Sequence record: MH159197.1
Strand: one strand, 5' to 3'
DNA: 64,000 bases
From: Staphylococcus phage VB_SavM_JYL01
Positions within the stretch are counted from its first letter, which is position 1, and the number at the start of each line of letters is the position of its first letter. Of this stretch, positions 8,286-62,310 are shown piece after piece. The translations under genes and the position numbers were made by a program. The notes below the pieces were generated by a model, which worked only from the letters and a program-made list of their open reading frames with translations, did no database searches and was not told the DNA's origin.

Positions 8286-9773
8286 CTATTTGAATACTCC
8301 CCAAGCAACCCCAGGTATATGATTAGGTGGAACTCCTTGACAAGTTCTAACAGGGCAATATACTCTGTTACCATTGTAAGCATTGTAACCTATCCAAATG
8401 TGACCTGCTTGGATACAAACTTCGTCATATACAATTGTAGCTCCTGCCGGTAAGTTACCTCCTACTGGAGCATTTAAGAATGGAGAACCTATTCTAGTTA
8501 CTATAGGTTGGTTACCATTAACAAATGTTGCATTTTCCGGTTTGTACCAAGTTCCGTACTGGTTCTTTTTCCAAGAGCCTGTTACTGGTCTAGTTGCCGG
8601 TGTACTTGCGCTACTTGTTTTACCGTCTTTAACTACTGTAGAACTTGAAGTTCCTTTATCCATGTAGTTTTTAATTTGTTTAATGAAATAATCTTTTAGT
8701 TTATTCATTATTGCTTGAGATGGTCTTCCTTGTGTTACTGGATTAAATCCTGTATGAAGAACCATAGAACGATGAGGACAAGCTGTTGGAACAAATTCCA
8801 TATGCAATCTTACAGTTTTACGATTAGGAGTAAGACCCCATTCTTTAAATTTCTCTGCAGTAAATTGGAATACTGCTTGTTCGTTTTTAAGGAATTGAGC
8901 ATCACTAGCACTCATTGATTGACAGACTTCAATACCTGCAAATCTAAAGTTACCTGAGTTTGCTCCTGTTCCATCTCCTGTGTGCCAAGCAATTTGATTC
9001 TTAGCATCTATTGCTTCCCATACATAACCTTCAGAGCCATAGTAATGAGCAATACCATTAGCATATCTAGCATAACCTGCGTTAGCTAATGAATTCTCGT
9101 ATTGTTGCCCTGAAGAACGACCTGCATCGTTGTGTATTACCATTCCTTCAGGTTTCTTACCACGTTTATCCATTGTATAGTTAATATGGTTCTTAGAAAC
9201 TTTTAGTGTTGCTTTCTTTTTAGGTGCAGGTGTTTTACTTGCACTTTTCTTAGCTGTTTCTTTTTTAACAGTAGTTCCTGCTTTTACAGGTATCTCAATA
9301 AAATGAGTTAATCCGTAATAATTATCTACACGTTTTGTAGGTTTTTTATTAGCGTAACCGTTCCAGTTTTGCTCTAAAATAGTAAATGTAGAAGTATTAC
9401 CTCCATCATATACAATACCTATGTGACCCCATTGCTGATAACTACCGGATGTAAATACAGCAATCCATCCTTTTTTAGGTACTGTAGAAGGTTTATTTTC
9501 ATGTATTTTAAATCCAGTACCATAACTTTGTTTGATTTGGTCTTTAGCATTACCCCAAGTTCTAACTTTATTATCTGTTAACCATAATACATAATCAGTA
9601 ATTAAGTCTTGGCACTGTGCATGATAGTAACCATCTGCGTCAATTGCTCCTGCTTCCATTACACCAAACGATGGGTCATAGCTTGTAGCTTTTTTAATTC
9701 TATAAGGACTGTCTACTGTACCTTTTGCATAAGCGTCTAAACGTTTATTTATTTCTGCTTGAGTCTTAGCCAT
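8286..9773 (-). CDS. lysK: endolysin with CHAP, amidase_2 and SH3b domains (LysK-like), uninterrupted
   Basis: 495 aa. The N-terminus [24 protein letters not shown]... and the CHAP Cys/His region match what I recall of phage K endolysin, and there is a C-terminal SH3b domain. Confidence 0.9.
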
Positions 9774-10276
9774 TACTTAACTTCCTCCTCTGCAAATACT
9801 TTACCGTGTTCCTCGGTATCTTCTTCATCTTGAGAAGGTGCTGAACCGCCATCAATTTCATCTTCAATAGCAGGTACTTCATCACTATCATCTGTATCAG
9901 GTTCTGCATTGTTTTCATAGTTGTCTAATTCGAAAGTGCTAGCTGTGTTTGCATTTGCTTGCCATTGAACAAATTCATTAGGGTCTTTACTATCACGAGG
10001 TTTTATATAATCTGTTTGAACAATATCACTATCTTTAAGACCTTTAGTATTATTATCAACAATAATACCTAAACCTGCTAATAATGTTAGTATAGAACCT
10101 ATGATATTTACACCTTGCTCAATTTGAGCTGAGTAGTCTAAACCAAAAGCACCTGTAATTTGATTAGCAAATACTGCTACTGCTGATATAATTGCTACCC
10201 AAAATGTTTTACTCTTAGTTCTTGTGCTAAAGTTTATTCCTCCAACAACTTTAGGTTGTTTAGTTTCATTAGCCAT
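9773..10276 (-). CDS. holin
   Basis: 167 aa with 2 TM segments and a charged C-terminal tail. Sits immediately upstream of, and overlaps, the endolysin. Confidence 0.8.
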
Positions 10277-10277
10277 T

Positions 10278-10334
10278 AAAAAACCGACCTTTCTATTATA
10301 TTTATTTCTAACAATAATATAACAGTAGGTCGGT
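10278..10334 (-). terminator. large-loop hairpin plus U-run ending the 10361..10546 transcript
   Basis: accgacct (10283-10290) pairs with aggtcggt (10327-10334) and is followed by a U-run. The 36-nt loop carries the late motif. Confidence 0.4.
10315..10324 (-). promoter_or_regulatory. late-promoter motif TGTTATATTA upstream of holin-endolysin
   Basis: Exact 10-mer on the minus strand, ~40 nt upstream of the holin ATG. The same 10-mer recurs before the capsid, tape-measure and fiber operons. Confidence 0.55.
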
Positions 10335-10360
10335 CATGTTTATCTATATTAATTTAACAC

Positions 10361-10546
10361 TTACTCATTAATTTGATTTAGTTTTTTGATAACTTCAGAC
10401 ATTTGTTTGTTATCTAAATCTTCTAATTTAGTTTCAGGTAATAACTCTAATTTATCCCAAACTTCTTCTTTATTAGATACTTTATTATTAATAATTGCCT
10501 TACCAACTAAACTTTCCGTATAATATAATTGCTTTGCTGATGCCAT
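10361..10546 (-). CDS. hypothetical protein (61 aa)
   Basis: ORF track. Confidence 0.45.
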   Translation of the reverse strand: MASAKQLYYTESLVGKAIINNKVSNKEEVWDKLELLPETKLEDLDNKQMSEVIKKLNQINE

Positions 10547-10705
10547 TTGTATCTCTCCTTTTAAATATGTAAAGTATATAGCTAGTATCGTATCCTAGGA
10601 ACAAACACTTGCGCTATATACTCAATGAAACTCTACCCTCATTCGAGGACACAGCAAACCGATTCGTCAACCGCACATGTGAATTCTCAAGTTTCATTTA
10701 TGTAA

Positions 10706-10777
10706 CACACCCTCTTTGATTTGCACAAAGACTAAGGGTTTTGGAGACCCTTGTACTACTAATTATACTAAGGGTGT
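10706..10777 (-). tRNA. tRNA-Trp (anticodon CCA)
   Basis: Hand-folded cloverleaf. Acceptor ACACCCT/AGGGTGT, anticodon stem AGGGT/ACCCT, loop CTCCAAA. D- and T-loops are slightly non-canonical. Confidence 0.6.
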
Positions 10778-10783
10778 TTATTA

Positions 10784-10856
10784 TGGTTTCTATTGGATTT
10801 GAACCAATGACACCTAGAGCTTCAATCTAGTGCTCTACCATCTGAGCTAAGAAACC
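10784..10856 (-). tRNA. tRNA-Phe (anticodon GAA)
   Basis: Acceptor GGTTTCT/AGAAACC, D-stem GCTC/GAGC, anticodon stem CTAGA/TCTAG, loop TTGAAGC, T-arm ATTGG-TTCAAAT-CCAAT. Confidence 0.8.
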
Positions 10857-10862
10857 TTGTAA

Positions 10863-10936
10863 CGACTCATACGAGACTCGAACTCGTACTCTCTGCCGTG
10901 ACAGGGCAGTGTGTTAACCAGTTACACCAATGAGCC
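10863..10936 (-). tRNA. tRNA-Asp (anticodon GTC)
   Basis: Acceptor GGCTCAT/ATGAGTC, anticodon stem CTGCC/GGCAG, loop CTGTCAC, T-arm ACGAG-TTCGAGT-CTCGT. Confidence 0.8.
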
Positions 10937-11067
10937 AAAATAAATGCTATACCCTAACCTTACCTTAATGTATAGCAGGTTTTCATATAAGCTCGAAGCA
11001 ACGATTATTACCACTCATAACAACTATATATTAAGTGAAAGGAGGTGAAATGAACAAAACGTGGTAA

Positions 11068-11096
11068 TTGGTACTTATATAGGAAGTATGTATAAT
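11068..11096 (+). promoter_or_regulatory. plus-strand promoter-like element (TTGGTA-17-TATAAT) at the 5' edge of a long hairpin
   Basis: TTGGTA, then cttatataggaagtatg (17 nt), then TATAAT (11090-11095). Confidence 0.4.
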
Positions 11097-11184
11097 CTAC
11101 AAGGAGTAAGTTATTGGTTCATAAAGGAGTGTGAACAATAAATACATGAAAGAGTGAAAGTCTACTCCTTGTAGATTCTTTTTT
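11094..11184 (+). ncRNA. candidate small structured RNA / large-loop terminator
   Basis: Perfect 15-bp inverted repeat: aatctacaaggagta (11094-11108) pairs with tactccttgtagatt (11163-11177). The 54-nt loop has its own gttca/tgaac stem, and a T6 run follows (11179-11184). Confidence 0.4.
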
Positions 11185-11189
11185 AATTA

Positions 11190-11850
11190 TCAATCAAAGG
11201 AGGAAACTGATAATTGTTAATAATAAACTATAAAGAGGAAAATATTTATAGTCACATTCTGATATAATGCAACTAAATATCCAAGCATAACCCGTCTCAC
11301 GAGGAACCTACCTATAAGACCTGTTATTAAGTGAATCACTACGATTGACTCTATTAAGGAGCTACCTTAAGTCCATCTCACGCAATTTAAAAGGGACTTA
11401 CAAACCGTATAACGATAGTAAGTTTATTAAATAATGTGATATTAACATATTAGTTAATAACTTTCACATGGTCGAAGAAAAGTAAATTTATTTGATTTCC
11501 AAATTATTTTTATCAAATATAGCTTCTTTTGAACCTGTAGATTTATGCTACTCATACTAATAACCTCTATTATCTAACACATTTCTGTGCTCCAACTACA
11601 GTTAGTCGTTACAGCGTATCTTTCTAGGATTCCGCTAAGACCCTAGAAAGAAATTAAACCCTAGCCGTTATCATACTCTACAGACCTTATAAGTAAGTAC
11701 CAAGTATACCAATCGTATTTAACAATACTAATGACGACCCATCCTACCGATATATTTCCGATAGGTTTTGATTCGTTTGATTATCTTGTACCTTATGACT
11801 ACCAAATCATTATTCAGTCACTATGCTCAGATATTTAGTTGTATTATTAT
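11190..11850 (-). ncRNA. ORF-free ~0.66-kb transcribed leader downstream of two consensus promoters; candidate structured ncRNA or pseudo-tRNA region
   Basis: No ORF longer than ~20 codons on either strand despite non-extreme composition. It has many local hairpins, for example tctttctagg/cctagaaaga at ~11621-11655. It is continuous with the tRNA cluster on the same strand. Confidence 0.35.
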
Positions 11851-11856
11851 ATATTA

Positions 11857-11885
11857 ATTATAACATAATTTTTAGTACTTGTCAA
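11857..11885 (-). promoter_or_regulatory. perfect sigma-A consensus promoter (TTGACA-17-TATAAT), leftward
   Basis: Minus strand: TTGACA (11880-11885), 17-nt spacer, TATAAT (11857-11862). Confidence 0.65.
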
Positions 11886-12033
11886 GTTAATTTTAAAAAA
11901 AATTATAGAAGTAAGATAAAATTCTTACTTCCAATTAAAATTATAAGGATGATACACATTGTTATTGTTTAAACTGGAAAACAATGTAAGAAAAAACAGT
12001 GATGTGTAAGGTATTTGTTTTATTGTTAATTAC

Positions 12034-12062
12034 ATTATAGCATATACTGATACCTTTGTCAA
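12034..12062 (-). promoter_or_regulatory. perfect sigma-A consensus promoter (TTGACA-17-TATAAT), leftward
   Basis: Minus strand: TTGACA (12057-12062), 17-nt spacer, TATAAT (12034-12039). Shares the ttgtcaagttaattt context with the 11857 promoter. Confidence 0.65.
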
Positions 12063-12088
12063 GTTAATTTAATACTTTTTTTAAAATA

Positions 12089-12307
12089 TTAGTTATCTTT
12101 TGTTAGTTCTTCCTGAATAGCATCCCATCTTCTTTCTGCTTCACTACGATTATCTTCTATATGTTTTGTAGTTTTACAACATTTGATACAGTATATATCT
12201 TTGATATGACCTTCTTCTCTTTTATTTGCTCTTTTTCTTGGTACTTTGAATACATTACCACATTCTTTACATATTAAACTTGAGTAAAACATTTTTTGTC
12301 TTTTCAT
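12089..12307 (-). CDS. small zinc-ribbon protein (CxxC...CxxCC), 72 aa
   Basis: LICKECGNVFKV ... YCIKCCKTTKH. Confidence 0.55.
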   Translation of the reverse strand: MKRQKMFYSSLICKECGNVFKVPRKRANKREEGHIKDIYCIKCCKTTKHIEDNRSEAERRWDAIQEELTKDN

Positions 12308-12410
12308 AATTAATCAATTCCTTTTCTTGTTTTATTTGATAATTTAACTATATACTATATTGATAAATAAGTCAACAGTTTTCTAAAAATAATTTAAATT
12401 ATTTTGAAGA

Positions 12411-12541
12411 ATCCTTTAATACCAAGGGTTACAAGAGAAAAAGTACGTATTTAGAAAATAAGGAGTACTCCTATTATATATAATTATATTCTGATATAAG
12501 TAATTAATAATATTAAATATATAATTATAATTAATAAGGTT
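12411..12541. repeat. direct repeat unit 1 (~131 bp)
   Basis: Three conserved blocks: atcctttaRTAYCA; then aaaagtacgtatttagaaaataaggaNNNctcctattata; then aaatatataattataattaataaggtt. Contains the perfect palindrome GGAGTACTCC (12462-12471). Confidence 0.7.
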
Positions 12542-12600
12542 GGGAAAATTGAATTAAATATAATCTGATACTTGGTAAAACTACTCAATATAGAAGTAAA

Positions 12601-12732
12601 ATCCTTTAGTATCAGTACTTACAGACAAAAAAGTACGTATTTAGAAAATAAGGAACTCTCCTATTATAGTTATATATACTTATTAATTATTATTAATTAC
12701 TATCTAAATATATAATTATAATTAATAAGGTT
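12601..12732. repeat. direct repeat unit 2 (~132 bp), ~85% identical to unit 1
   Basis: Same three conserved blocks with a divergent AT-rich middle. Unit-to-unit spacing ~190 bp. Confidence 0.7.
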
Positions 12733-12787
12733 AGAGAGTCAACAAAAAGACAAATAAAAAAGTGACTACTTAAAGTCACTTGTTAAT

Positions 12788-12997
12788 TTAAAAAACTATT
12801 TTAAATGATTCAATCATTCTTGGGTTAATATAAATTAAACTAGAACTAGCATCTTCAGTTGTATTAACTTTTATTGATGCTGAATCAGAACCACTAATCA
12901 TATAGTCTATATCTTTTCTAGTGTAACCCTTTTCGTCAGATGATACTAAAAAATATTTAGCACCACTTAACATTGTTATTTCAATATGTTTTGACAT
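12788..12997 (-). CDS. hypothetical protein (69 aa)
   Basis: ORF track. Confidence 0.5.
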   Translation of the reverse strand: MSKHIEITMLSGAKYFLVSSDEKGYTRKDIDYMISGSDSASIKVNTTEDASSSLIYINPRMIESFKIVF

Positions 12998-13009
12998 CTA
13001 CAATCTCTC

Positions 13010-13342
13010 CTATGCAAATTTGTTAAAGACAAAGGATAGTATAGCACCTAGAACGAGTAAAAGAACCTTCTCAGTAGTATCCTTCTTCCTAGTATCTTTA
13101 GTTTTTGTACTTTCAGCAAGTTCTGAAATCTTTTCATCAAGTCTTTCTAATTGGACGTAAATTGCTGATTGTTTTTCACTATTGACAGCTACATCTTTAT
13201 CTATACTAACTATCATTTTTCTTAGTTCAGCTACCTCAACTTCTAAATCTTTGAAAGTTCCTCTATCTATATAATTACCTTCTTGTATCTTAGACTTAAT
13301 AGTTTCTACTTGAGAAACAAGGTTGTTTATCTCCTTATCCAA
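13010..13342 (-). CDS. coiled-coil protein with C-terminal TM anchor (tail-anchored membrane protein)
   Basis: Heptad-rich body, then a KKDTTEK stretch, then a hydrophobic C-terminus VLLLVLGAILSFVF. Confidence 0.55.
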   Translation of the reverse strand: MDKEINNLVSQVETIKSKIQEGNYIDRGTFKDLEVEVAELRKMIVSIDKDVAVNSEKQSAIYVQLERLDEKISELAESTKTKDTRKKDTTEKVLLLVLGAILSFVFNKFA

Positions 13343-13354
13343 CTAGAATCACCT

Positions 13355-13681
13355 CTAAGGTCTAACCGTTTCAGATTCAGAATGGATATCATAATTTTCT
13401 AAGAAATCATTGATAATCTCCATATAATTATCCGTAACGACTTTTCCGTAAGATGTTTTTGTATCAATTTCAAACCTAAGCTTACCAAAACTTTGGAGGT
13501 CTAATTCTTTTATTACAATATTAGGGTCATCAGAAGGAAGGTAATAATAGTCGAAGTATATAATTGAGCCATTTATTAATACTCTGTCTATTCTATAGAC
13601 GTGGAAATAGCGTCTGTCTCTTTTAAAATGGGCTAGTGCATCTTTAAACTCTAACTTAAGGATATCCTTATATTTAGTCAA
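13355..13681 (-). CDS. hypothetical protein (108 aa)
   Basis: ORF track. Confidence 0.5.
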   Translation of the reverse strand: MTKYKDILKLEFKDALAHFKRDRRYFHVYRIDRVLINGSIIYFDYYYLPSDDPNIVIKELDLQSFGKLRFEIDTKTSYGKVVTDNYMEIINDFLENYDIHSESETVRP

Positions 13682-13713
13682 AGTGGTAACCTCCTTACTA
13701 TTAATTTTTAAAT

Positions 13714-13980
13714 TTACTTATTTTGTGGTATAATAGTTATGATAAAGGCAGTTATTATAATTATATTAAGAATAATGATAATAATTATTTTTTCTGAGAA
13801 AATAAGCCAAATACTAAAAACAGATAAAGCATAGATAGCTGATAGATATACTATATTAAGAGTTACCTTACTTTTATCTTCTTTATAGATAGAATAACCT
13901 AAAGACGTTGTAACACCACTAAGTATAAAATAATAGAAACAAAAAAGAGGTATAGACAGAAAAAAAGATACGATAATCAT
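13714..13980 (-). CDS. small very hydrophobic membrane protein (88 aa, ~3 TM)
   Basis: ORF track; Ile/Leu-rich. Confidence 0.5.
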   Translation of the reverse strand: MIIVSFFLSIPLFCFYYFILSGVTTSLGYSIYKEDKSKVTLNIVYLSAIYALSVFSIWLIFSEKIIIIIILNIIIITAFIITIIPQNK

Positions 13981-14037
13981 TGTTAAACACCTATTTCTTT
14001 TTGACCTATTATTTATAGAACTTTTAGATTACACCAC

Positions 14038-14047
14038 TAATATAACA
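14038..14047 (-). promoter_or_regulatory. late-promoter motif TGTTATATTA (leftward)
   Basis: Exact 10-mer on the minus strand, ~58 nt upstream of the 13980 start. Confidence 0.5.
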
Positions 14048-14072
14048 TTAAAAGCCAGTCATAAAAGTCAAT

Positions 14073-14082
14073 TGTTAGATTA
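14073..14082 (+). promoter_or_regulatory. late-motif variant TGTTAGATTA (rightward), 1 mismatch
   Basis: Located ~40 nt upstream of the 14121 start, in the divergent region. Confidence 0.3.
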
Positions 14083-14120
14083 ATAATATAATAAAAAAAG
14101 ACAATAGGAGGTTAAAGTGG

Positions 14121-14507
14121 TTGAATAATAACATAGCTATATTCATATTCAAAACACTGGTTATCATTATATTCTTACTACTAATTTTGTCTGTTATTAA
14201 TTCCTTGTCCCTTATTTATTCAATAAGACCGAGTGTAGTTATGACATACTTTATATTTGGTGGTATTGTTTCTAATGTCGCACTTACTATAACAGATAAG
14301 TTCTTACTGAAGAAAGAAGACCCCCTACCTGAATATGTTCTTAAAAAAGTAGAGATAAATGATAAAGAAATAAGAATAATCAAGAAAATCATAGAAAGTA
14401 ACTACGGTATAACAGCAGAAGAGATAAAAGTTAGGGCTAAAGCACAAAGAAGAATAGAGGAAGATAGTAAAAAGGAAGATTACGATGAAAACAAAGAAAG
14501 AAATTAA
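14121..14507 (+). CDS. membrane protein with charged C-terminal domain (128 aa, TTG start)
   Basis: ORF track; GGAGG SD upstream. Confidence 0.5.
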   Translation: MNNNIAIFIFKTLVIIIFLLLILSVINSLSLIYSIRPSVVMTYFIFGGIVSNVALTITDKFLLKKEDPLPEYVLKKVEINDKEIRIIKKIIESNYGITAEEIKVRAKAQRRIEEDSKKEDYDENKERN

Positions 14508-14763
14508 AGAACAAAGGAAAGAGCTTAAGGATGGTGCTACATCTGTTTCTTTAGTAAAAAAAGGAGATAAGAGAATAGCTAGCCCTAGTAGAATTTGTAG
14601 CCTATGCGGTCAGCAGTTATCAGGTATGAATTACACTAAAGGAAAAGCATTATCAAAAGTTAATCATTTTCATTTACAGTATTCTAAGTATATTTATTTT
14701 GATATTTGCGCAGATATCAACAATTGTTATAAGAATTTAAGAAAAAGAGGTGAAATGGATTGA
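14485..14763 (+). CDS. small Cys/His-containing protein (CSLCG...NHFH...CADINNC), possible Zn-binding
   Basis: ORF track; overlaps neighbouring genes at both ends. Confidence 0.45.
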   Translation: MKTKKEIKEQRKELKDGATSVSLVKKGDKRIASPSRICSLCGQQLSGMNYTKGKALSKVNHFHLQYSKYIYFDICADINNCYKNLRKRGEMD

Positions 14764-15170
14764 GTGCAGAAAATATTAGAGATATAATTAACAAGAAAAA
14801 GTTAGAAGAAGAGGATACAAGAAAATATATAGCTGATGGATTTATGAATGGTATAGGTAAATTAATGTATGAATTCAATAAAAAAGTAGATAATAAAGAA
14901 ATAGAAGTTAAAGACCCTAATGATTTATATAAACTATTCGTGATATTCTCTCAAATGCAAAATATGGTTAATGAAACTTCTGAAGGTGGAGCAATACCTC
15001 AGCTATCTAGACCTCAGCAAGAATTATTTGACGAGATTACAACAGAAGATAGTAATGGAGAATCTACAGTTGATTTACAGAAGATACAAGAAATGACAGC
15101 AGAAGATATTACAGCAATGATTTCTGAAAAAGAAAAAGTAATGAATGAGGAAAATTCAGAAACATTCTAA
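14760..15170 (+). CDS. acidic protein immediately upstream of terminase large subunit (small-terminase candidate by position only)
   Basis: Gene order only; no motif seen. Confidence 0.4.
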   Translation: MSAENIRDIINKKKLEEEDTRKYIADGFMNGIGKLMYEFNKKVDNKEIEVKDPNDLYKLFVIFSQMQNMVNETSEGGAIPQLSRPQQELFDEITTEDSNGESTVDLQKIQEMTAEDITAMISEKEKVMNEENSETF

Positions 15171-15184
15171 GGAGAAAGATATAA

Positions 15185-17002
15185 ATGGATGGAAAAGAAC
15201 TAATTAAGATAGCACAAGAAACATTTCAAACTGAAAAAATAACAAGAGAACAGATAGACCATATAATCAATATGTTAAACCCTTCTACCTATATGCTTAA
15301 GTATCACACACTAAGAGGACACCCTATAACTTTCAGCATTCCTAATAGAGATAGAAGTAAAGCACAGGCTCATAGACCATGGCAAACTAGGATTGTAAAC
15401 GATACTCATCCTAATAAGGCTGTAATAAAATCACGTCAGTTAGGTCTTAGTGAGATGGGTGTAATGGAAATGGTTCATTTTGCAGATATGCATAGTTATG
15501 CCAATGCAAAGTGTTTATACACATTCCCTACAAATGAACAAATGAAAAAATTTGTTCAGTCTCGTTTGAACCCTGTATTAGAAAAAGAATATTTTAGAGA
15601 TATTGTTGATTGGGATAAAGACTCTTTAGGTTTTAAAAAGATAAGAAACTCTAGTTTATTCTTTAGAACAAGTTCTAAAGCAAGTACTGTAGAGGGTGTG
15701 GATATTGACTACTTATCCTTAGATGAGTATGATAGGGTAAACTTATTAGCAGAGTCATCTGCATTAGAGTCAATGTCTTCATCACCTTTTAAGATTGTGA
15801 GAAGATGGAGCACACCATCTGTACCCGGTATGGGTATACACAAATTATATCAACAATCTGACCAATGGTATTATGGTCATAGATGTCAACATTGTGATTA
15901 TTTAAATGAAATGAGTTATAATGATTACAACCCTGATAATCTTGAAGAAAGTGGGAATATGTTATGTGTTAACCCTGAAGGTGTAGATGAACAGGCTAAA
16001 ACAGTACAGAATGGTAGTTACCAATTTGTTTGTCAAAAATGCGGTAAACCACTAGATAGATGGTATAATGGTGAGTGGCATTGTAAGTATCCTGAGCGTA
16101 CAAAAGGTAATAAAGGGGTACGAGGATACCTAATAACACAAATGAACGCTGTATGGATTTCTGCTGATGAATTAAAAGAAAAAGAAATGAATACAGAATC
16201 TAAGCAAGCGTTTTACAATTATATTTTGGGTTATCCATTTGAAGATGTTAAACTGAGAGTTAATGAAGAAGACGTTTATGGTAACAAATCACCTATTGCA
16301 GAAACACAATTAATGAAACGAGATAGATATTCTCATATAGCTATTGGTATAGATTGGGGAAATACTCATTGGATAACTGTTCATGGTATGTTACCTAATG
16401 GTAAGGTAGACTTAATACGATTATTCTCTGTTAAAAAGATGACAAGACCTGATTTAGTTGAAGCAGATTTAGAAAAAATCATTTGGGAAATATCTAAGTA
16501 CGACCCTGATATTATAATTGCAGATAACGGAGATTCAGGAAACAATGTTCTAAAACTCATTAATCATTTTGGAAAAGATAAAGTATTTGGATGTACGTAT
16601 AAATCTTCTCCTAAGTCTACAGGACAGTTGAGACCTGAATTTAATGAGAACAATAATAGGGTTACAGTAGATAAATTAATGCAGAATAAAAGATATATAC
16701 AAGCACTTAAGACAAAGGATATAAGTGTTTATAGTACAGTAGATGATGATTTAAAAACTTTCTTAAAACATTGGCAAAATGTTGTTATTATGGATGAAGA
16801 AGATGAAAAAACTGGAGAAATGTATCAAGTTATTAAACGTAAAGGTGACGACCATTATGCACAAGCAAGTGTTTATGCCTATATAGGATTAACAAGAATA
16901 AAAGAACTTCTTAAAGAAGGAAATGGTACAAGCTTTGGTTCTACATTTGTTTCTACTGATTACAACCAAGAAGGAAATAAACAATTCTACTTTGATGAAT
17001 AG
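15185..17002 (+). CDS. terL: terminase large subunit, uninterrupted
   Basis: 605 aa. T4 gp17-like Walker A variant SRQLGLSE, Walker B DIDYLSLDEYDR, inserted Cys-rich region, nuclease domain. Confidence 0.85.
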   Translation: MDGKELIKIAQETFQTEKITREQIDHIINMLNPSTYMLKYHTLRGHPITFSIPNRDRSKAQAHRPWQTRIVNDTHPNKAVIKSRQLGLSEMGVMEMVHFADMHSYANAKCLYTFPTNEQMKKFVQSRLNPVLEKEYFRDIVDWDKDSLGFKKIRNSSLFFRTSSKASTVEGVDIDYLSLDEYDRVNLLAESSALESMSSSPFKIVRRWSTPSVPGMGIHKLYQQSDQWYYGHRCQHCDYLNEMSYNDYNPDNLEESGNMLCVNPEGVDEQAKTVQNGSYQFVCQKCGKPLDRWYNGEWHCKYPERTKGNKGVRGYLITQMNAVWISADELKEKEMNTESKQAFYNYILGYPFEDVKLRVNEEDVYGNKSPIAETQLMKRDRYSHIAIGIDWGNTHWITVHGMLPNGKVDLIRLFSVKKMTRPDLVEADLEKIIWEISKYDPDIIIADNGDSGNNVLKLINHFGKDKVFGCTYKSSPKSTGQLRPEFNENNNRVTVDKLMQNKRYIQALKTKDISVYSTVDDDLKTFLKHWQNVVIMDEEDEKTGEMYQVIKRKGDDHYAQASVYAYIGLTRIKELLKEGNGTSFGSTFVSTDYNQEGNKQFYFDE

Positions 17003-20541: not shown

Positions 20542-22233
20542 TTGGCAGATTTATTTAAGCAATTCAGATTAGGTAAGGACTATGGTAATAATAGTACCAT
20601 TGCTCAAGTTCCTATTGATGAAGGATTACAAGCTAACATTAAAAAAATAGAACAAGACAATAAAGAGTACCAAGACTTAACTAAGTCTTTATACGGACAA
20701 CAACAGGCTTATGCAGAGCCATTTATAGAAATGATGGATACTAATCCTGAATTTAGAGATAAGAGAAGTTACATGAAGAATGAACATAATTTACACGATG
20801 TTTTGAAAAAGTTTGGTAATAATCCTATTCTTAATGCTATCATACTTACACGTTCAAATCAAGTAGCTATGTATTGTCAACCTGCAAGATACTCAGAGAA
20901 AGGTTTAGGTTTTGAGGTAAGATTAAGAGACCTAGATGCAGAACCAGGTAGAAAAGAAAAAGAAGAAATGAAACGTATAGAAGATTTTATTGTTAATACA
21001 GGTAAAGATAAAGATGTAGATAGAGATTCGTTTCAAACTTTCTGTAAGAAAATTGTTAGAGATACTTATATATATGACCAAGTTAACTTTGAAAAAGTAT
21101 TTAATAAGAACAATAAAACTAGATTAGAAAAATTCATAGCAGTAGACCCTTCTACTATTTTTTATGCAACAGATAAAAAAGGTAAAATTATTAAGGGTGG
21201 TAAGAGGTTTGTTCAAGTAGTAGATAAAAGAGTAGTAGCTAGTTTTACTTCTAGAGAATTAGCTATGGGTATAAGAAATCCTAGAACTGAATTATCTTCT
21301 TCAGGGTACGGATTATCAGAAGTAGAGATAGCTATGAAAGAATTTATTGCTTATAATAATACTGAATCATTTAACGATAGATTTTTCTCACATGGTGGTA
21401 CTACAAGAGGTATTTTACAAATACGTTCAGACCAACAACAATCACAACATGCATTAGAGAACTTCAAGCGTGAATGGAAATCAAGTTTATCGGGTATCAA
21501 TGGTTCATGGCAAATTCCAGTGGTAATGGCAGACGATATTAAATTTGTTAATATGACACCGACTGCTAATGATATGCAATTTGAGAAATGGTTAAATTAT
21601 CTTATTAATATTATATCTGCTTTGTATGGTATTGACCCTGCAGAAATTGGTTTCCCTAATAGAGGAGGAGCTACAGGTTCTAAAGGTGGTTCTACTTTAA
21701 ATGAGGCTGACCCAGGTAAAAAACAACAACAATCTCAAAATAAAGGTTTACAACCTTTACTTAGATTTATTGAAGATTTAGTTAATAGACATATTATATC
21801 AGAATATGGAGATAAATATACATTCCAATTCGTAGGTGGAGATACTAAGAGTGCTACGGACAAACTTAATATTCTTAAACTAGAAACTCAAATATTTAAA
21901 ACAGTCAATGAGGCTAGAGAAGAACAAGGTAAGAAACCTATTGAAGGTGGAGACATTATCTTAGATGCTTCATTCTTACAAGGAACAGCACAATTACAAC
22001 AAGATAAACAATATAATGATGGTAAACAGAAAGAACGTTTACAAATGATGATGAGTTTACTAGAAGGAGATAATGACGATTCAGAAGAAAGTCAATCAAC
22101 AGATTCTAGTAATGCTGATAAAGAAATAGGAACAGATGCGCAAATAAAAGGTGACGATAATGTTTACCGAACTCAAACATCTAATAAAGGTCAAGGGAGA
22201 AAAGGAGAAAAATCTTCTGACTTTAAACATTAA
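20542..22233 (+). CDS. portal protein
   Basis: 563 aa. Lies between terminase and prohead protease. Consistent with the Kayvirus portal as I recall it. Confidence 0.8.
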   Translation: MADLFKQFRLGKDYGNNSTIAQVPIDEGLQANIKKIEQDNKEYQDLTKSLYGQQQAYAEPFIEMMDTNPEFRDKRSYMKNEHNLHDVLKKFGNNPILNAIILTRSNQVAMYCQPARYSEKGLGFEVRLRDLDAEPGRKEKEEMKRIEDFIVNTGKDKDVDRDSFQTFCKKIVRDTYIYDQVNFEKVFNKNNKTRLEKFIAVDPSTIFYATDKKGKIIKGGKRFVQVVDKRVVASFTSRELAMGIRNPRTELSSSGYGLSEVEIAMKEFIAYNNTESFNDRFFSHGGTTRGILQIRSDQQQSQHALENFKREWKSSLSGINGSWQIPVVMADDIKFVNMTPTANDMQFEKWLNYLINIISALYGIDPAEIGFPNRGGATGSKGGSTLNEADPGKKQQQSQNKGLQPLLRFIEDLVNRHIISEYGDKYTFQFVGGDTKSATDKLNILKLETQIFKTVNEAREEQGKKPIEGGDIILDASFLQGTAQLQQDKQYNDGKQKERLQMMMSLLEGDNDDSEESQSTDSSNADKEIGTDAQIKGDDNVYRTQTSNKGQGRKGEKSSDFKH

Positions 22234-22238
22234 TTAAT

Positions 22239-22278
22239 AAGCCTAGAATAAATCTAGGCTTTGTTTATTTTTTTGTAA
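22239..22278 (+). terminator. intrinsic terminator after portal
   Basis: Hairpin aagcctaga/tctaggctt followed by a T-rich run. Confidence 0.6.
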
Positions 22279-22370
22279 TTTAATTTTGATAAAGGTAATA
22301 ACTATGATATACTATATGTAATTGATATTAATACATAAAAAATATTAATATTTCACTTACAAGTTATTAT

Positions 22371-32288: not shown

Positions 32289-32741
32289 ATGAGTACATTT
32301 TGGTCAAAAAGAAGAACAACAGGTAAGGACAGACAAGTAAAGAAACATTATACTCAAATGTCTTTACAAGAAAAGAAGAAGTGTGTTAATCTATTACAAG
32401 ATACAATTAATACGCATAAGTATTTAGAACTATCAAGTCATTGTAAAACTAAACTTAAAAATAAAATTAATTTTAGTAATCTAGTAAGATTTATTTTTAA
32501 GGATAGAAATGCACCATTTAATATTATTGAGTATAATATTACAGATTTTCATGGTAAAGAACAAAGAAGAATAATTTTTAAAAGCCCTACTATTGTAACT
32601 ATAGAAGGAGTAAGTAGTTATCAGTACTTAGTTATTAACTTAGAAGATGGTACAATAATAACTACATACTATAATGGTATTACAGATACACATAAAACAT
32701 TAGATTTAAAATATTATAATAAAAACTTGACAATTAAATAA
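32289..32741 (+). CDS. hypothetical basic protein (150 aa; start at the second ATG)
   Basis: AAGGAG SD is 9 nt before the ATG at 32289. The track ATG at 32280 has no usable spacing. Confidence 0.55.
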   Translation: MSTFWSKRRTTGKDRQVKKHYTQMSLQEKKKCVNLLQDTINTHKYLELSSHCKTKLKNKINFSNLVRFIFKDRNAPFNIIEYNITDFHGKEQRRIIFKSPTIVTIEGVSSYQYLVINLEDGTIITTYYNGITDTHKTLDLKYYNKNLTIK

Positions 32742-32753
32742 GGAGGAATTATA

Positions 32754-32948
32754 ATGGGATTAATATTTGTAAATAGTTATTTTATAATATCAAACATATT
32801 AATTATTGTGTTTAGTAAATTAAATAGTAAAAAAAAGGTAACAGAAAAAACTCTAGCTACAAGTAATCTTTTATTAACAATATCATATATTCAACTATTA
32901 GCATTTTTAATCATTAATGGTATTTACTACTCATTAAAATATATGTAA
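32754..32948 (+). CDS. two-TM hydrophobic peptide (64 aa) with Lys-rich loop (holin-like or type-I-toxin-like architecture)
   Basis: Strong AAGGAGG SD. TM1 spans res 3-21, then KLNSKKKVTEK, then TM2 spans res 36-56. Confidence 0.55.
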   Translation: MGLIFVNSYFIISNILIIVFSKLNSKKKVTEKTLATSNLLLTISYIQLLAFLIINGIYYSLKYM

Positions 32949-60696: not shown

Positions 60697-62310
60697 ATGG
60701 CAACAAGAACACAACGAAAGTTATACCAATATCTAGAAGAAAATGCTACAGAAAATAAATTTCATATTTCTACTAAGAAAGAGTTAGCAGATTCTCTAGG
60801 CGTTTCCATCTCTGCTTTATCCAATAACCTTAAAAAGTTAGAAGAAGAAAATAAAGTTGTTACTGTTTCTAAAAGAGGAAAAAATGGTGGAGTAATAATA
60901 ACTTTAGTTAGGGAATATGACACAGAAGAATTGAAAGAATTTAATAATTCTACAGATAATATCATTACTTCTGATTTACAGTATGCTAAAGCATTAAGAG
61001 AAAAGCACTTTCCTTCTTATAGATACGAGAGGAAAGAACAGCGTAGACGTACTAAGTTAGAAATGGCACAGTATAATGCTATTAAAGATGAAAAGAGAAG
61101 AATTATAGCAGATATGAACTTTCATTCAGAAGGTCTTCCTTATCCTTCTAAAGATATATTTAATATGTCTTATGACCCGGAAGGATTTTATAAAGCATAC
61201 ATTCTATGTAAGTTATATGACCAATATGCTATTTCTCATATGGATGCTAAACATACAAGCCATCTTAAAGCAATGAGTAAGGCAACAACTAAAGATGAAT
61301 ATGATTACCATCAACATATGTCTGAATACTATAGAAATAAAATGATTCAAAATTTACCTAGAAATAGTGTTAGTGATAATTTCTTCGGTAGTAAAATGTT
61401 TAATACTTTCTATAATTTTTATTTAAAAATAAAAGATAAAAATATTAATGTATTTAAATATATGCAAAACGTATTTAAGAATGTAACATTTTATTATGAG
61501 AATGGTATGCAACCTAATCCAATACCTTCTCCTAACTTCTTTAGTTCAGATAAGTATTTTAAAAACTATAATAATTATATTAAAGGAATAAAAAAAGGTG
61601 TTAATAGTACAAATAGACACTTAGGGGATACAGATAGTATTATTAATTCATCAGATTATGTTAAGAACCCTGCTGTATTACATTTACATCAATTATATAC
61701 TACAGGATTAAATTCTACTTTACATGATATTGATACTATGTTTGAGCAAGCCTTAGACCTTGAGAATGCTTCTTATGGACTATTTGGAGATATGAAACAT
61801 ATTATTTTACTACAATATAATTCTATGATTGAAGAAGAAATTAAGAACTTACCTACAGAAGAGAAAAGTATTATTAATAAATATGTAAAACAATGCATAA
61901 TTAATGATTACTCCCCAACAAGCATATCACCATCTGCAAGATTATCAATGTTTACTATGCAGAAAGAGCATATAGTTTATAATAAACAGTTAAACAGAGG
62001 AATCAAGAGAGAAGATTTATTACCATTAAGTCTAGGAGGTATAGTGAATAAAGATTCACTAAGTGGTATGGATATACAAAACTTAGAGCAGAATGGTAAT
62101 GAGTACCTATATATGAGACAACATACTTCAACTTATTATATACTAAGAATGTTTGGTGATTATCTAGGATATGAAGTAAACTTAAGAGAAGTAAAATATA
62201 TTGTAGAGAAATATAATTTAATTGATAAAATACCATTGACAAAAGAGGGTATGTTGGATTATAATAAACTTATACATTTAGTAGAGGAAGAGGTTAATAA
62301 CTATGAGTAA
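60697..62310 (+). CDS. Rep-like replication initiation protein with N-terminal winged HTH
   Basis: ISTKKELADSLGVSISALSNNLKKLEEENKV. Position between two helicase genes. Confidence 0.55.
   Translation: MATRTQRKLYQYLEENATENKFHISTKKELADSLGVSISALSNNLKKLEEENKVVTVSKRGKNGGVIITLVREYDTEELKEFNNSTDNIITSDLQYAKALREKHFPSYRYERKEQRRRTKLEMAQYNAIKDEKRRIIADMNFHSEGLPYPSKDIFNMSYDPEGFYKAYILCKLYDQYAISHMDAKHTSHLKAMSKATTKDEYDYHQHMSEYYRNKMIQNLPRNSVSDNFFGSKMFNTFYNFYLKIKDKNINVFKYMQNVFKNVTFYYENGMQPNPIPSPNFFSSDKYFKNYNNYIKGIKKGVNSTNRHLGDTDSIINSSDYVKNPAVLHLHQLYTTGLNSTLHDIDTMFEQALDLENASYGLFGDMKHIILLQYNSMIEEEIKNLPTEEKSIINKYVKQCIINDYSPTSISPSARLSMFTMQKEHIVYNKQLNRGIKREDLLPLSLGGIVNKDSLSGMDIQNLEQNGNEYLYMRQHTSTYYILRMFGDYLGYEVNLREVKYIVEKYNLIDKIPLTKEGMLDYNKLIHLVEEEVNNYE

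What the first reader, a model, noticed from the sequence alone, without database searches (positions are those of the whole stretch)
12411..12732. Two ~131-bp direct repeats with an embedded GGAGTACTCC palindrome between early genes
Units at 12411-12541 and 12601-12732 share three blocks. The first is atcctttaRTAYCA. The second is aaaagtacgtatttagaaaataagga...ctcctattata. The third is the 27-bp AT-rich aaatatataattataattaataaggtt. A divergent middle separates the blocks. Unit 1 holds a perfect 10-bp palindrome, GGAGTACTCC, and an 8-bp inverted repeat (ctgatact/agtatcag) lies between the units. Iterated elements of this size next to strong promoters are typical of replication origins or iterons. 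They could also be binding arrays for a phage regulator or paired small-RNA genes. I cannot assign a function from the sequence alone.
Basis: seen in the sequence. Interest (0 to 1): 0.6.

Follow-up and report, generated by a model that had tools for sequence, protein, structure and literature searches.

The report
Known putative Kayvirus replication origin
The two ~131-bp repeats are real, but they are the silent, extremely AT-rich gap in Staphylococcus phage K-type viruses that several papers already propose, without proof, as the phage's DNA replication origin.

Summary
In detail: units 12411-12541 and 12601-12732 align at 82% identity, far above chance. The window is a Staphylococcus Kayvirus, 100% identical to deposited phages. 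The repeats fill the gap between the homologues of phage K gp191 (early) and gp190 (late). Three RNA-seq papers, citing Lobocka 2012, already describe this gap as silent, lowest in GC, carrying two direct repeats, and the putative origin. None mapped an origin.

New here: the conserved thing is a ~70-bp module, not the 131-bp unit. It is box A, an invariant 25 bp holding an A- or T-tract, then box B, followed by a 60-75-bp AT-rich tail. It occurs only in staphylococcal Twortvirinae, at one locus per genome. There is one copy in Silviavirus, two or three direct copies in Kayvirus, Sciuriunavirus and Sepunavirus, and two inverted copies in Twort. The tails are the two least stable duplex stretches of the whole 64 kb.

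The palindrome and the 8-bp inverted repeat are not significant or conserved. The small-RNA reading has no support. Strict iteron criteria are not met.

Best reading: a replicator made of protein-binding modules plus unwinding elements (confidence about 0.5). The main rival is an upstream regulatory or insulator element. Novelty: already known.

The parts
12308..12787 (.). Whole intergenic gap (480 bp, 19.8% GC) between iro/gp191 and dmcB/gp190. This is the published putative origin region of Kayvirus.
   Evidence: ORFs. Mapped to phage K 39052-39528. GC, which also shows the lowest-GC 450-bp stretch of the 64 kb starts at 12271 (18.9%). Literature.
12347..12375 (-). Early promoter of iro/gp191 (TTGACT-17-TATAGT). 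Its -35 box lies 38 nt downstream of box A of unit 1.
   Evidence: It is RNA-seq supported in phage K (promoter 33) and in 515A1 (p79). Spacing.
12410..12430 (+). Box A of unit 1 (AATCCTTTAATACCAAGGGTT).
   Evidence: Unique in 64 kb at up to 3 mismatches, with 0 expected. Conserved in five genera.
12431..12449 (+). Spacer of unit 1, with an A5 tract at 12438-12442. The published 28-bp repeat (12438-12465) starts here.
   Evidence: The box A to box B distance is invariant at 25 bp in 17 of 17 box-A modules, and the tract is an A-run or a T-run depending on lineage. The 28-mer is located.
12450..12462 (+). Box B of unit 1 (TTTAGAAAATAAG).
   Evidence: The only exact matches in the window are the two units. 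Its core 9-mer is present in all six lineages, with a null expectation of 0.
12462..12471 (.). The 10-bp palindrome GGAGTACTCC. It sits at a variable position of the module.
   Evidence: P about 0.06-0.07, no stem of 4 bp or more in 10 of 24 modules, and sequence not conserved.
12472..12541 (.). AT-rich tail of unit 1, including block 3. The least stable 60-bp duplex of the window starts at 12473. Candidate unwinding element.
   Evidence: mean nearest-neighbour dG -0.863, against a window mean of -1.185 and sd 0.075. The tail is nearly invariant among five Kayvirus-level genomes.
12542..12599 (.). Inter-unit spacer.
12600..12620 (+). Box A-like element of unit 2 (AATCCTTTAGTATCAGTACTT).
   Evidence: This version is invariant among Kayvirus-level relatives.
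12640..12652 (+). Box B of unit 2. It is preceded by an A6 tract at 12627-12632. The published 28-mer lies at 12628-12655 with one mismatch.
12662..12732 (.). AT-rich tail of unit 2, including block 3. The second least stable 60-bp duplex of the window starts at 12662.
   Evidence: -0.872. A tandem (TTATTAATTA)n-like run at 12680-12726 appears.
12715..12742 (-). Promoter-like site TTGACT-16-TATAAT (11 of 12 matches, no TG) pointing into the tail of unit 2. It is predicted only, with no transcript support in the published data.
   Evidence: The homologous site scored 0.977 in PhagePromoter for 515A1 but is absent from that paper's RNA-seq-supported list. The Sb1M record annotates it as promoter-like.
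12760..12781 (-). Intrinsic terminator of the late dmcB/gp190 operon. It forms the right boundary of the element.
   Evidence: Phage K terminator 21 at 39504.
60697..62310 (+). Candidate binding protein (inferred only): a 537-aa winged-helix 'Rep-like' protein encoded between two helicase genes.
   Evidence: Pfam HTH_24 at 3.7e-5 and a sub-threshold RepL match. PHROG 1098 'HTH DNA binding protein', with helicase families matching both neighbours. No related solved structure.

Best explanation
The locus is a non-transcribed, cis-acting DNA element, most likely the phage's replication origin.

Its working unit is a ~70-bp composite protein-binding module specific to staphylococcal Twortvirinae. 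The module is box A (AAATCCTTTwATATCAAGGGTT), then 25 bp containing an A- or T-tract that probably bends the DNA, then box B (TTTRGAAAATAAG). It is always followed on the box B side by 60-75 bp of the least stable duplex in the genome. Kayviruses carry two such module-plus-tail units in tandem.

Inferred mechanism. An early or middle phage DNA-binding protein occupies box A and box B. The best candidate is the winged-helix 'Rep-like' protein encoded between the two helicase genes. The intervening tract helps wrap or bend the DNA, the adjacent AT-rich tail melts, and the phage DnaB-like helicase and primase are loaded.

What is shown: the repeat, the module geometry, its lineage specificity, its single locus per genome, and the extreme AT content and instability. 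Transcriptional silence comes from the literature. What is inferred: protein binding, melting, and initiation.
For: 1. Same locus as the published candidate. The gap corresponds to phage K 39052-39528, between gp191 and gp190. Three RNA-seq studies report it as untranscribed or minimally transcribed, about 20-21% GC, carrying two direct repeats, and propose it as the origin. The published 28-mer is at 12438-12465 and 12628-12655.

2. Physical properties. It holds the lowest-GC 450-bp stretch of the window. The two least stable 60-bp and 100-bp stretches of the 64 kb are the two unit tails, more than 4 sd from the mean. In the loci of four other genera the least stable stretch is also the module tail. 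The deepest minima track module number in four of the five genera: 2, 2, 1, and one shared central minimum in Twort. The three-module Sepunavirus-like contig shows two tail minima among its three deepest.

3. Selection on DNA. The gap is syntenic in five genera. Box A and box B are the only universally conserved k-mers apart from a ribosome-binding site. Fifteen modules align without gaps over ~70 columns at 75% column identity, while the flanking DmcB protein is only 45-52% identical between genera.

4. Rigid geometry. The 25-bp spacing holds in 17 of 17 box-A modules. The spacer tract is an A-run or a T-run depending on lineage, which fits a duplex-level rather than a strand-specific or RNA role.

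5. Orientation-independent pairing with AT-rich DNA. In Twort and a relative, two modules are inverted and face each other across one (TATTAG)n tract. This is the geometry described for SaPI origins (PMC9371898).

6. Specificity. The composite occurs only in Twortvirinae contigs, at one locus per genome, and in no Staphylococcus genome.

7. Position. The locus lies 1.3-1.7 kb from the leftward/rightward gene-orientation switch and the cumulative GC-skew minimum. Forks leaving it would run mostly co-directionally with transcription.

8. No rival locus in the window. Other AT-rich dips, including one inside the Rep-like gene, have no significant repeats.
Against: No experiment has mapped initiation here. 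Every published statement is an inference from silence, GC content and the repeats.

Only 1-3 copies of a long module exist, not an iteron array. Copy spacing (128-191 bp) is not helically phased across genera.

There are no DnaA boxes.

The presumed initiator gene is about 48 kb away, and its link to the boxes is pure inference.

The promoter-proximal box A sits a fixed 38-39 nt upstream of an early-promoter -35 box in 8 of 11 cases. That fits a transcription-regulatory site equally well.

The GC-skew minimum is confounded with gene orientation.

Large virulent phages often use several origins or recombination-dependent initiation, so one AT-rich gap need not be the origin.
Confidence: 0.5

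Rival explanations
1. The element is an upstream regulatory or insulator region, not an origin. Box A and box B would be operator or activator sites for a phage regulator that controls the adjacent early promoter. Candidates are the Cro/CI-like HTH protein noted by the reader, or another early protein. Alternatively the region buffers the early iro promoter from read-through of the late dmcB operon. The second Kayvirus unit would then be a duplicated copy of that control region.
For: The promoter-proximal box A lies 38-39 nt upstream of a TTGAC -35 box in Kayvirus, Silviavirus, Sepunavirus and Twort-type loci (8 of 11 cases). This holds whichever gene follows: iro, or an inserted anti-repressor-like gene. 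The element sits exactly between a late-operon terminator and an early promoter. Modules that lack box A carry a near-perfect operator-like palindrome, AATATTCTGAATATT, at the same position.
Against: The distal Kayvirus module and the left Twort module have no promoter within reach. No other early promoter in the 64-kb window carries box A or box B. A regulatory role does not explain why each module is tied to the least stable DNA of the genome, in either orientation. Regulation and origin function are also not mutually exclusive.
Confidence: 0.2
2. Each unit is a transcription-driven element. A promoter-like site on the minus strand fires into the AT-rich tail and makes a short RNA of about 60 nt, ending near the small hairpin plus T-run at box B. 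This RNA would act as a primer or R-loop, giving a T4 oriF/oriG-type origin, or as a small regulatory RNA. Standard RNA-seq libraries would miss it.
For: TTGACT-16-TATAAT (11 of 12 matches) sits at 12742-12715, directly after a terminator T-run, as many Kayvirus early promoters do. PhagePromoter scored the homologous 515A1 site 0.977. In 4 of 5 genera one TTGACT-type site points into a module tail. On the minus strand the variable inverted repeat is followed by TTATTTTCT. T4 oriF and oriG are defined as a promoter plus an AT-rich downstream unwinding element (PMC3016281). PMC11598898 itself cautions that RNA-seq measures steady-state transcript levels only.
Against: Three RNA-seq studies see little or no signal here. 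The site is not among the RNA-seq-supported promoters. Unit 1 has only a -10 box. Twort has no such site, and two of the three modules in the Sepunavirus-like contig lack one. Promoter-like counts in these gaps do not exceed shuffles. The hairpin is not significant or conserved. There is no fold signal and no Rfam match. The spacer tract flips strand, which argues against an RNA-level role for that part.
Confidence: 0.1
3. The repeats are a neutral by-product. Unequal crossing-over or replication slippage in a low-complexity AT-rich spacer produced tandem copies that have no function of their own.
For: Copy number varies from 1 to 3 between lineages. Within a genome the unit tails are 94-100% identical but differ between genera, as recent duplication or gene conversion would give.
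Against: Box A, box B and their 25-bp spacing are kept across five genera whose flanking proteins are about 50% identical. The two-unit state is present in all 225 records that cover at least 80% of the gap. The unit 1 tail and the unit 2 box A/spacer/box B are nearly invariant among Kayvirus-level genomes, while neighbouring spacer DNA varies.
Confidence: 0.05

Closest known systems
Published putative origin of phage K and other Kayviruses (gp190-gp191 gap). Lobocka et al. 2012, Adv Virus Res 83:143, as cited by PMC9241854, PMC8952766 and PMC11598898.
   Same: It is the identical locus. It carries the same 28-bp repeat AAAAAGTACGTATTTAGAAAATAAGGAG twice, has the same low GC, and has the same flanking genes.
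   Different: Nothing differs in substance. The window is 100% identical to deposited phages here. The held papers describe only the 28-bp repeats, the GC content and the silence. The cross-genus module anatomy reported here does not appear in them. I could not read the 2012 chapter.
SaPI replication origins (staphylococcal pathogenicity islands)
   Same: Initiator-binding repeats lie on both sides of a central AT-rich region and point in opposite directions, and a winged-helix domain recognises them (PMC9371898). The Twort arrangement matches this geometry: two inverted modules flank about 75 bp of (TATTAG)n.
   Different: SaPI iterons are 5-6 bp, number 6-12, and lie immediately downstream of rep. 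Here the sites are ~70-bp composite modules in 1-3 copies, direct in most genera, and about 48 kb from the Rep-like gene. Binding was not tested.
Lambda-type and plasmid iteron origins (PMC4980987 reviews iteron plasmids; lambda from established knowledge)
   Same: Repeated protein-binding DNA lies next to an AT-rich unwinding region.
   Different: Iteron origins have three or more short (about 17-22 bp) repeats, closely and regularly spaced, usually in or beside the initiator gene. That is not the case here.
Phage T4 oriF and oriG (promoter plus downstream unwinding element, R-loop primed; PMC3016281)
   Same: A sigma-70-type promoter-like site sits directly upstream of a very AT-rich stretch.
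   Different: Here the promoter-like site is complete in only one of the two Kayvirus units, is absent in Twort, and has no transcript support. T4 origins have no counterpart of the conserved box A/box B module.

Membership tests
Published Kayvirus putative origin (gp190-gp191 intergenic repeats) | Lies between the homologues of phage K gp191 (PhageK_075) and gp190 (PhageK_076) | tested here: met
   The window gap 12308-12787 aligns to phage K 39052-39522 at 93% identity. The flanking ORFs match.
Published Kayvirus putative origin (gp190-gp191 intergenic repeats) | Carries the direct repeat AAAAAGTACGTATTTAGAAAATAAGGAG twice, about 190 bp apart | tested here: met
   Found at 12438-12465 (exact) and 12628-12655 (one mismatch). 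The sequence is quoted in PMC11598898.
Published Kayvirus putative origin (gp190-gp191 intergenic repeats) | Lowest G+C content of the genome | tested here: met
   It is the lowest 450-bp GC of the 64-kb window, at 18.9%. The rest of the genome is outside the window. PMC9241854 states this for the whole phage K genome.
Published Kayvirus putative origin (gp190-gp191 intergenic repeats) | No or minimal transcription during infection | not testable with these tools
   Literature only. No mapped promoter lies between the iro promoter and the late promoter.
Iteron-type replication origin (lambda, theta plasmids, SaPI) | An array of three or more short (5-22 bp), closely spaced initiator-binding repeats | tested here: not met
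   There are two long units 190 bp apart. Silviavirus has one module. No shorter reiterated motif is enriched.
Iteron-type replication origin (lambda, theta plasmids, SaPI) | An adjacent AT-rich DNA unwinding element | tested here: met
   The two least stable 60-bp and 100-bp duplex stretches of the 64 kb are the unit tails. The same holds in other genera. Stability is computed only; melting was not shown.
Iteron-type replication origin (lambda, theta plasmids, SaPI) | Origin within or next to the initiator gene | tested here: not met
   The Rep-like ORF is at 60697-62310, about 48 kb away. Its own AT-rich dip has no repeats. This feature is common but not universal.
Iteron-type replication origin (lambda, theta plasmids, SaPI) | Specific initiator binding, and replication starting at the site | not testable with these tools
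   This needs EMSA or footprinting, and marker-frequency or 2D-gel mapping.
DnaA-dependent origin | DnaA boxes (TTATCCACA) clustered at the site | tested here: not met
   No match with up to 1 mismatch in 12000-13000.
Transcription-primed origin (T4 oriF/oriG type) | A functional promoter immediately upstream of the unwinding element | tested here: inconclusive
   There is an 11-of-12 site before the tail of unit 2, but only a -10 box before unit 1. One TTGACT-type site occurs per locus in 4 of 5 genera and none in Twort, and counts do not exceed shuffles. The site is not RNA-seq supported.
Transcription-primed origin (T4 oriF/oriG type) | A persistent RNA-DNA hybrid or primer transcript in the unwinding element | not testable with these tools
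   Published RNA-seq shows minimal signal, but it measures steady-state long RNA only.
Small non-coding RNA genes | A match to a described RNA family | tested here: not met
   Rfam at E up to 10 over 9000-16000 returned only the three tRNAs and chance-level hits outside the units.
Small non-coding RNA genes | A stable or conserved secondary structure with compensatory changes | tested here: not met
   Folding z-scores are -1.0, -1.5, -1.0 and -0.6 for both units on both strands. The one candidate hairpin has P of about 0.06 or worse and is absent in many modules. The spacer tract switches strand.

The most novel reading that the evidence does not exclude
The gap is a modular origin that is partly transcription-primed. 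The conserved box A/box B module recruits a phage initiator. In the one unit per genome that keeps a full early-type promoter, host RNA polymerase lays down a short, unstable transcript in the least stable DNA of the genome. That transcript primes leading-strand synthesis, as at T4 oriF. The freedom to have one, two or three direct modules, or two inverted ones, would then show how a phage origin can be rebuilt from one cassette. This would be the first experimentally definable origin architecture for Herelleviridae.
Probability: 0.1. Interest if true: 0.55.

Novelty: already known. Interest (0 to 1): 0.3.

Why it matters
Kayviruses are among the most widely used therapeutic staphylococcal phages. 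My literature searches found no origin in this phage group, or in Herelleviridae generally, that has been mapped experimentally. A defined origin would help phage engineering, for example amplifiable vectors, genome rebooting and replication-defective derivatives. It would also help interpret defence systems that target phage replication. The finding itself adds nothing to what is published. The useful increment is a sharper target for experiments: mutate box A, box B or the 25-bp spacer rather than 'the 28-bp repeats', and probe the two tails at 12473-12532 and 12662-12721. The natural one-copy (Silviavirus) and inverted (Twort) variants serve as ready-made comparisons.

Tried and rejected
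1. Hairpin with compensatory changes after box B. By eye the arms seemed to covary (GGAG/CTCC, CGG/CCG, AGAA/TTCT, AGAG/CTCT). Against shuffles only 3 of 24 modules reach P<0.05, and 10 have no stem of 4 bp or more. Rejected as evidence.

2. A short reiterated motif (TTCTGA-type or CTGATA) as the 'true iteron'. It is not enriched in the window and is not among the universally conserved k-mers.

3. DnaA boxes: none.

4. Rfam and RNA folding on both strands: nothing.

5. An origin inside the Rep-like gene, at the AT-rich dip 61290-61460. It is coding sequence with no direct repeats. The other AT-rich dips (about 32630, 22208, 13695) have no significant repeats.

6. A host or plasmid origin of the module. 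The composite pattern has 53 hits in 596 Gb of bacterial genomes, none in Staphylococcus and all scattered, so they are chance. Six of the 14 viral hits are chance as well.

7. Reading Lobocka 2012 directly: the chapter is not held.

8. A solved structure related to the Rep-like protein: none.

9. Iro as the module's binding protein. Its only outside similarity is a weak eS26-like zinc ribbon (E 0.03) and a PHROG labelled 'ribosome associated inhibitor A'. This points to RNA or the ribosome rather than to origin DNA, so I did not pursue it.

Full report
WHAT THE WINDOW IS. Over 11800-13400 the window is 100% identical to several deposited Staphylococcus Kayvirus genomes (HSA30, KMSP1, OPT-SA02). 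It is 92-93% identical to phage K, G1, A5W and their relatives. The finding lies in a 480-bp gap, 12308-12787, between two minus-strand genes. One is 12089-12307, a 72-aa zinc-ribbon protein called Iro in Lobocka's annotation and gp191/PhageK_075 in phage K. The other is 12788-12997, a 69-aa DUF7209 protein called DmcB, gp190/PhageK_076. To the left are strong early promoters, the abundant non-coding RNA region and three tRNA genes. About 1.3 kb to the right, gene orientation switches from leftward to rightward.

THE OBSERVATION. The repeat is real and far beyond chance. The ungapped copies 12410-12513 and 12600-12703 are 72% identical, and a 28-nt block is repeated exactly at 12514-12541 and 12705-12732. 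The local alignment score is 58.5, against 10.9 +/- 1.5 in dinucleotide-preserving shuffles. The palindrome GGAGTACTCC is at 12462-12471, but a G/C-containing 10-bp palindrome arises in 6.6% of shuffled gaps. It is replaced by unrelated sequence in close relatives. The 8-bp inverted repeat exists (12565 and 12608), but its second arm lies inside unit 2 and it is kept only in phage K. The gap is not 'between early genes'. It lies between the terminator of a late operon and the promoter of an early gene.

IT IS ALREADY DESCRIBED. Finstrlova et al. 2022 (PMC9241854) state that the only untranscribed locus of phage K is the 450-bp region between gp191 and gp190. They note it has the lowest GC of the genome, take this as 'strongly suggesting' the origin, and cite two direct repeats as a putative Rep binding place, referring to Lobocka et al. 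2012. A 2024 phage K study (PMC11598898) gives the repeat sequence and coordinates, marks the region 'ori', and reports minimal to no transcription. The SAM1 study (PMC8952766) makes the same inference from low read depth and 20% GC. The promoter and terminator tables for phage K and 515A1 list nothing between the iro promoter and the late promoter upstream of the dmcB operon. The published 28-mer is at 12438-12465 and 12628-12655 in the window. In the literature I could search, nobody has mapped initiation. I could not read the 2012 chapter.

WHAT IS REALLY CONSERVED. The gap is syntenic, downstream of dmcB, in Kayvirus, Sciuriunavirus, Sepunavirus, Silviavirus and Twort-type phages. I anchored all copies on the most conserved motif. 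The unit of conservation is then a ~70-bp module rather than the 131-bp repeat:
- box A: AAATCCTTTwATATCAAGGGTT
- 25 bp of spacer
- box B: TTTRGAAAATAAG
- a 60-75-bp AT-rich tail on the box B side

The spacing is invariant in all 17 modules that have box A. Fifteen modules from five genera align without gaps over ~70 columns at 75% column identity. By contrast, DmcB protein is only 45-52% identical between genera. The spacer holds a 5-7-nt homopolymer tract. It is an A-run in Kayvirus and the right-hand Twort copy, and a T-run in Sepunavirus, Silviavirus and the left-hand Twort copy. That fits a duplex property such as bending better than a strand-specific signal.

Copy number and orientation vary:
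- two direct copies in Kayvirus (176-191 bp apart), Sciuriunavirus (about 145 bp) and Sepunavirus (128-138 bp)
- three in one Sepunavirus-like contig
- one in Silviavirus
- two inverted copies in Twort and a relative, facing each other across a single (TATTAG)n tract

Some modules replace box A with a near-perfect palindrome, AATATTCTGAATATT, at the same place. Within a genome the tails of the copies are 94-100% identical but differ between genera, which indicates homogenisation or recent duplication. An unbiased k-mer scan recovers only box A, box B and the downstream ribosome-binding site as universally conserved.

SPECIFICITY AND PHYSICAL PROPERTIES. Box B occurs exactly only at the two units in 64 kb, and box A is unique. 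The composite pattern, box A then 25 nt then box B, is found in IMG/VR only in Twortvirinae contigs and at one locus per genome. It is found in no Staphylococcus genome. The gap contains the lowest-GC 450-bp stretch of the window. The two least stable 60-bp and 100-bp duplex stretches of the whole window start at 12473 and 12662, which are the two unit tails, more than 4 sd from the mean. In the loci of the other genera the least stable stretch is again the module tail. The deepest minima follow the number of modules in four of the five genera. In the three-module Sepunavirus-like contig, two of the three deepest minima are tails. There are no DnaA boxes. Other AT-rich dips in the window, including one inside the Rep-like gene, lack significant repeats.

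TESTS OF THE RNA AND PROMOTER READINGS. Rfam finds nothing in the units. Folding z-scores are -0.6 to -1.5 on both strands. The small inverted repeat after box B looked like a covarying hairpin by eye but fails against shuffles. On the minus strand, block 3 of unit 2 plus the following GTCAAC forms TTGACT-16-TATAAT, an 11-of-12 match. The homologous 515A1 site scored 0.977 in PhagePromoter but is not among the RNA-seq-supported promoters. Unit 1 has only the -10 box. One such site per locus exists in four of five genera and none in Twort, and counts do not exceed shuffles. A short primer-type RNA is therefore neither supported nor excluded.

MOST LIKELY MECHANISM. I read the locus as a cis-acting DNA element, most probably the replication origin (confidence about 0.5). 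A phage protein would bind the composite box A/box B site. The best candidate is the 537-aa winged-helix protein encoded between two helicase genes. The intervening tract would help bend the DNA, the adjacent tail would melt, and the helicase and primase would load there. Kayvirus simply carries two such cassettes. The anatomy, specificity and instability are shown here. Transcriptional silence comes from the literature. Binding, melting and initiation are inferred.

The main rival (about 0.2) is an upstream regulatory or insulator element. The promoter-proximal box A sits a fixed 38-39 nt from the -35 box of the next early promoter in 8 of 11 cases, whatever gene follows. However, the distal Kayvirus copy and the left Twort copy have no such promoter, and no other early promoter carries the boxes. 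A transcription-primed or small-RNA variant gets about 0.1, and a neutral duplication about 0.05.

COMPARISON WITH KNOWN SYSTEMS. The locus is the published Kayvirus putative origin, so membership is met on position, repeat sequence and GC. It works like initiator-site-plus-unwinding-element origins. The Twort geometry resembles SaPI origins, which have oppositely oriented sites on both sides of an AT-rich centre, read by a winged-helix domain (PMC9371898). It does not meet the definition of an iteron array: there are too few sites, they are too long and too far apart, and they are not beside the initiator gene. The T4 oriF/oriG criteria, a promoter plus a downstream unwinding element (PMC3016281), are met for the unwinding element only and are inconclusive for the promoter.

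VERDICT. Novelty is 'already known'. The cross-genus module anatomy is an incremental refinement that sharpens the experiments. Interest is 0.3.

Noticed in passing
window 11897-12062 (minus strand): A perfect-consensus promoter (TTGACA-17-TATAAT with TG, 12062-12034) runs into an 11-bp-stem terminator (11933-11906). This defines a unit of about 130 nt that folds well (z = -4.3; 1 of 200 shuffles as good). It lies inside the region published as phage K lnc002 and starts at 515A1 promoter p78. It may be a discrete small RNA rather than part of a long one. It has no Rfam match.
   Followed up: partly
window ~11300-11885 (minus strand): The promoter at 11885-11857 (12 of 12 matches) drives the stretch upstream of the tRNA-Asp/Phe/Trp cluster (10706-10937). 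This corresponds to the published 'lncRNA2', reported as one of the two most abundant phage transcripts. It matches no Rfam family at E up to 10.
   Followed up: partly
window 12089-12307 (minus strand), Iro/gp191: This 72-aa early protein next to the gap is a CxxC...CxxC zinc ribbon. Its basic segment weakly resembles the N-terminus of ribosomal protein eS26 (best E 0.03). Its PHROG is labelled 'ribosome associated inhibitor A; zinc finger'. Its function is unknown. The central motif is conserved as far as Twort.
   Followed up: partly
window ~12668 (tail of unit 2): Two deposited Kayvirus records (MN539736 vB_SauM-A and MN539737 vB_SauM-C) end exactly at the position equivalent to window 12668. 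This suggests assemblies break, or coverage drops out, in this extremely AT-rich tail. Such artefacts could also depress RNA-seq and DNA-seq signal here.
   Followed up: no
L010 551-1414; L011 615-1496; L016 and L022 downstream of the module: In Silviavirus, phage SEP1 and a Twort-like contig, a gene of about 870 nt annotated 'anti-repressor protein' is inserted between the module with its promoter and iro. The module therefore stays with the dmcB side and its promoter, not with iro.
   Followed up: no
window 32630-32770, 22208-22324, 13695-13729, 61290-61460: These are the other marked AT-rich, low-stability dips of the window. The last one lies inside the Rep-like gene. None has significant direct or inverted repeats.
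   Followed up: partly
L019 / L029 (IMGVR_UViG_3300006456_000001): This Sepunavirus-like contig is 226,865 bp, far longer than the ~140-kb genomes of the group, and carries three modules instead of two. It may be a concatemeric or chimeric assembly, so the three-copy state needs confirmation.
   Followed up: no
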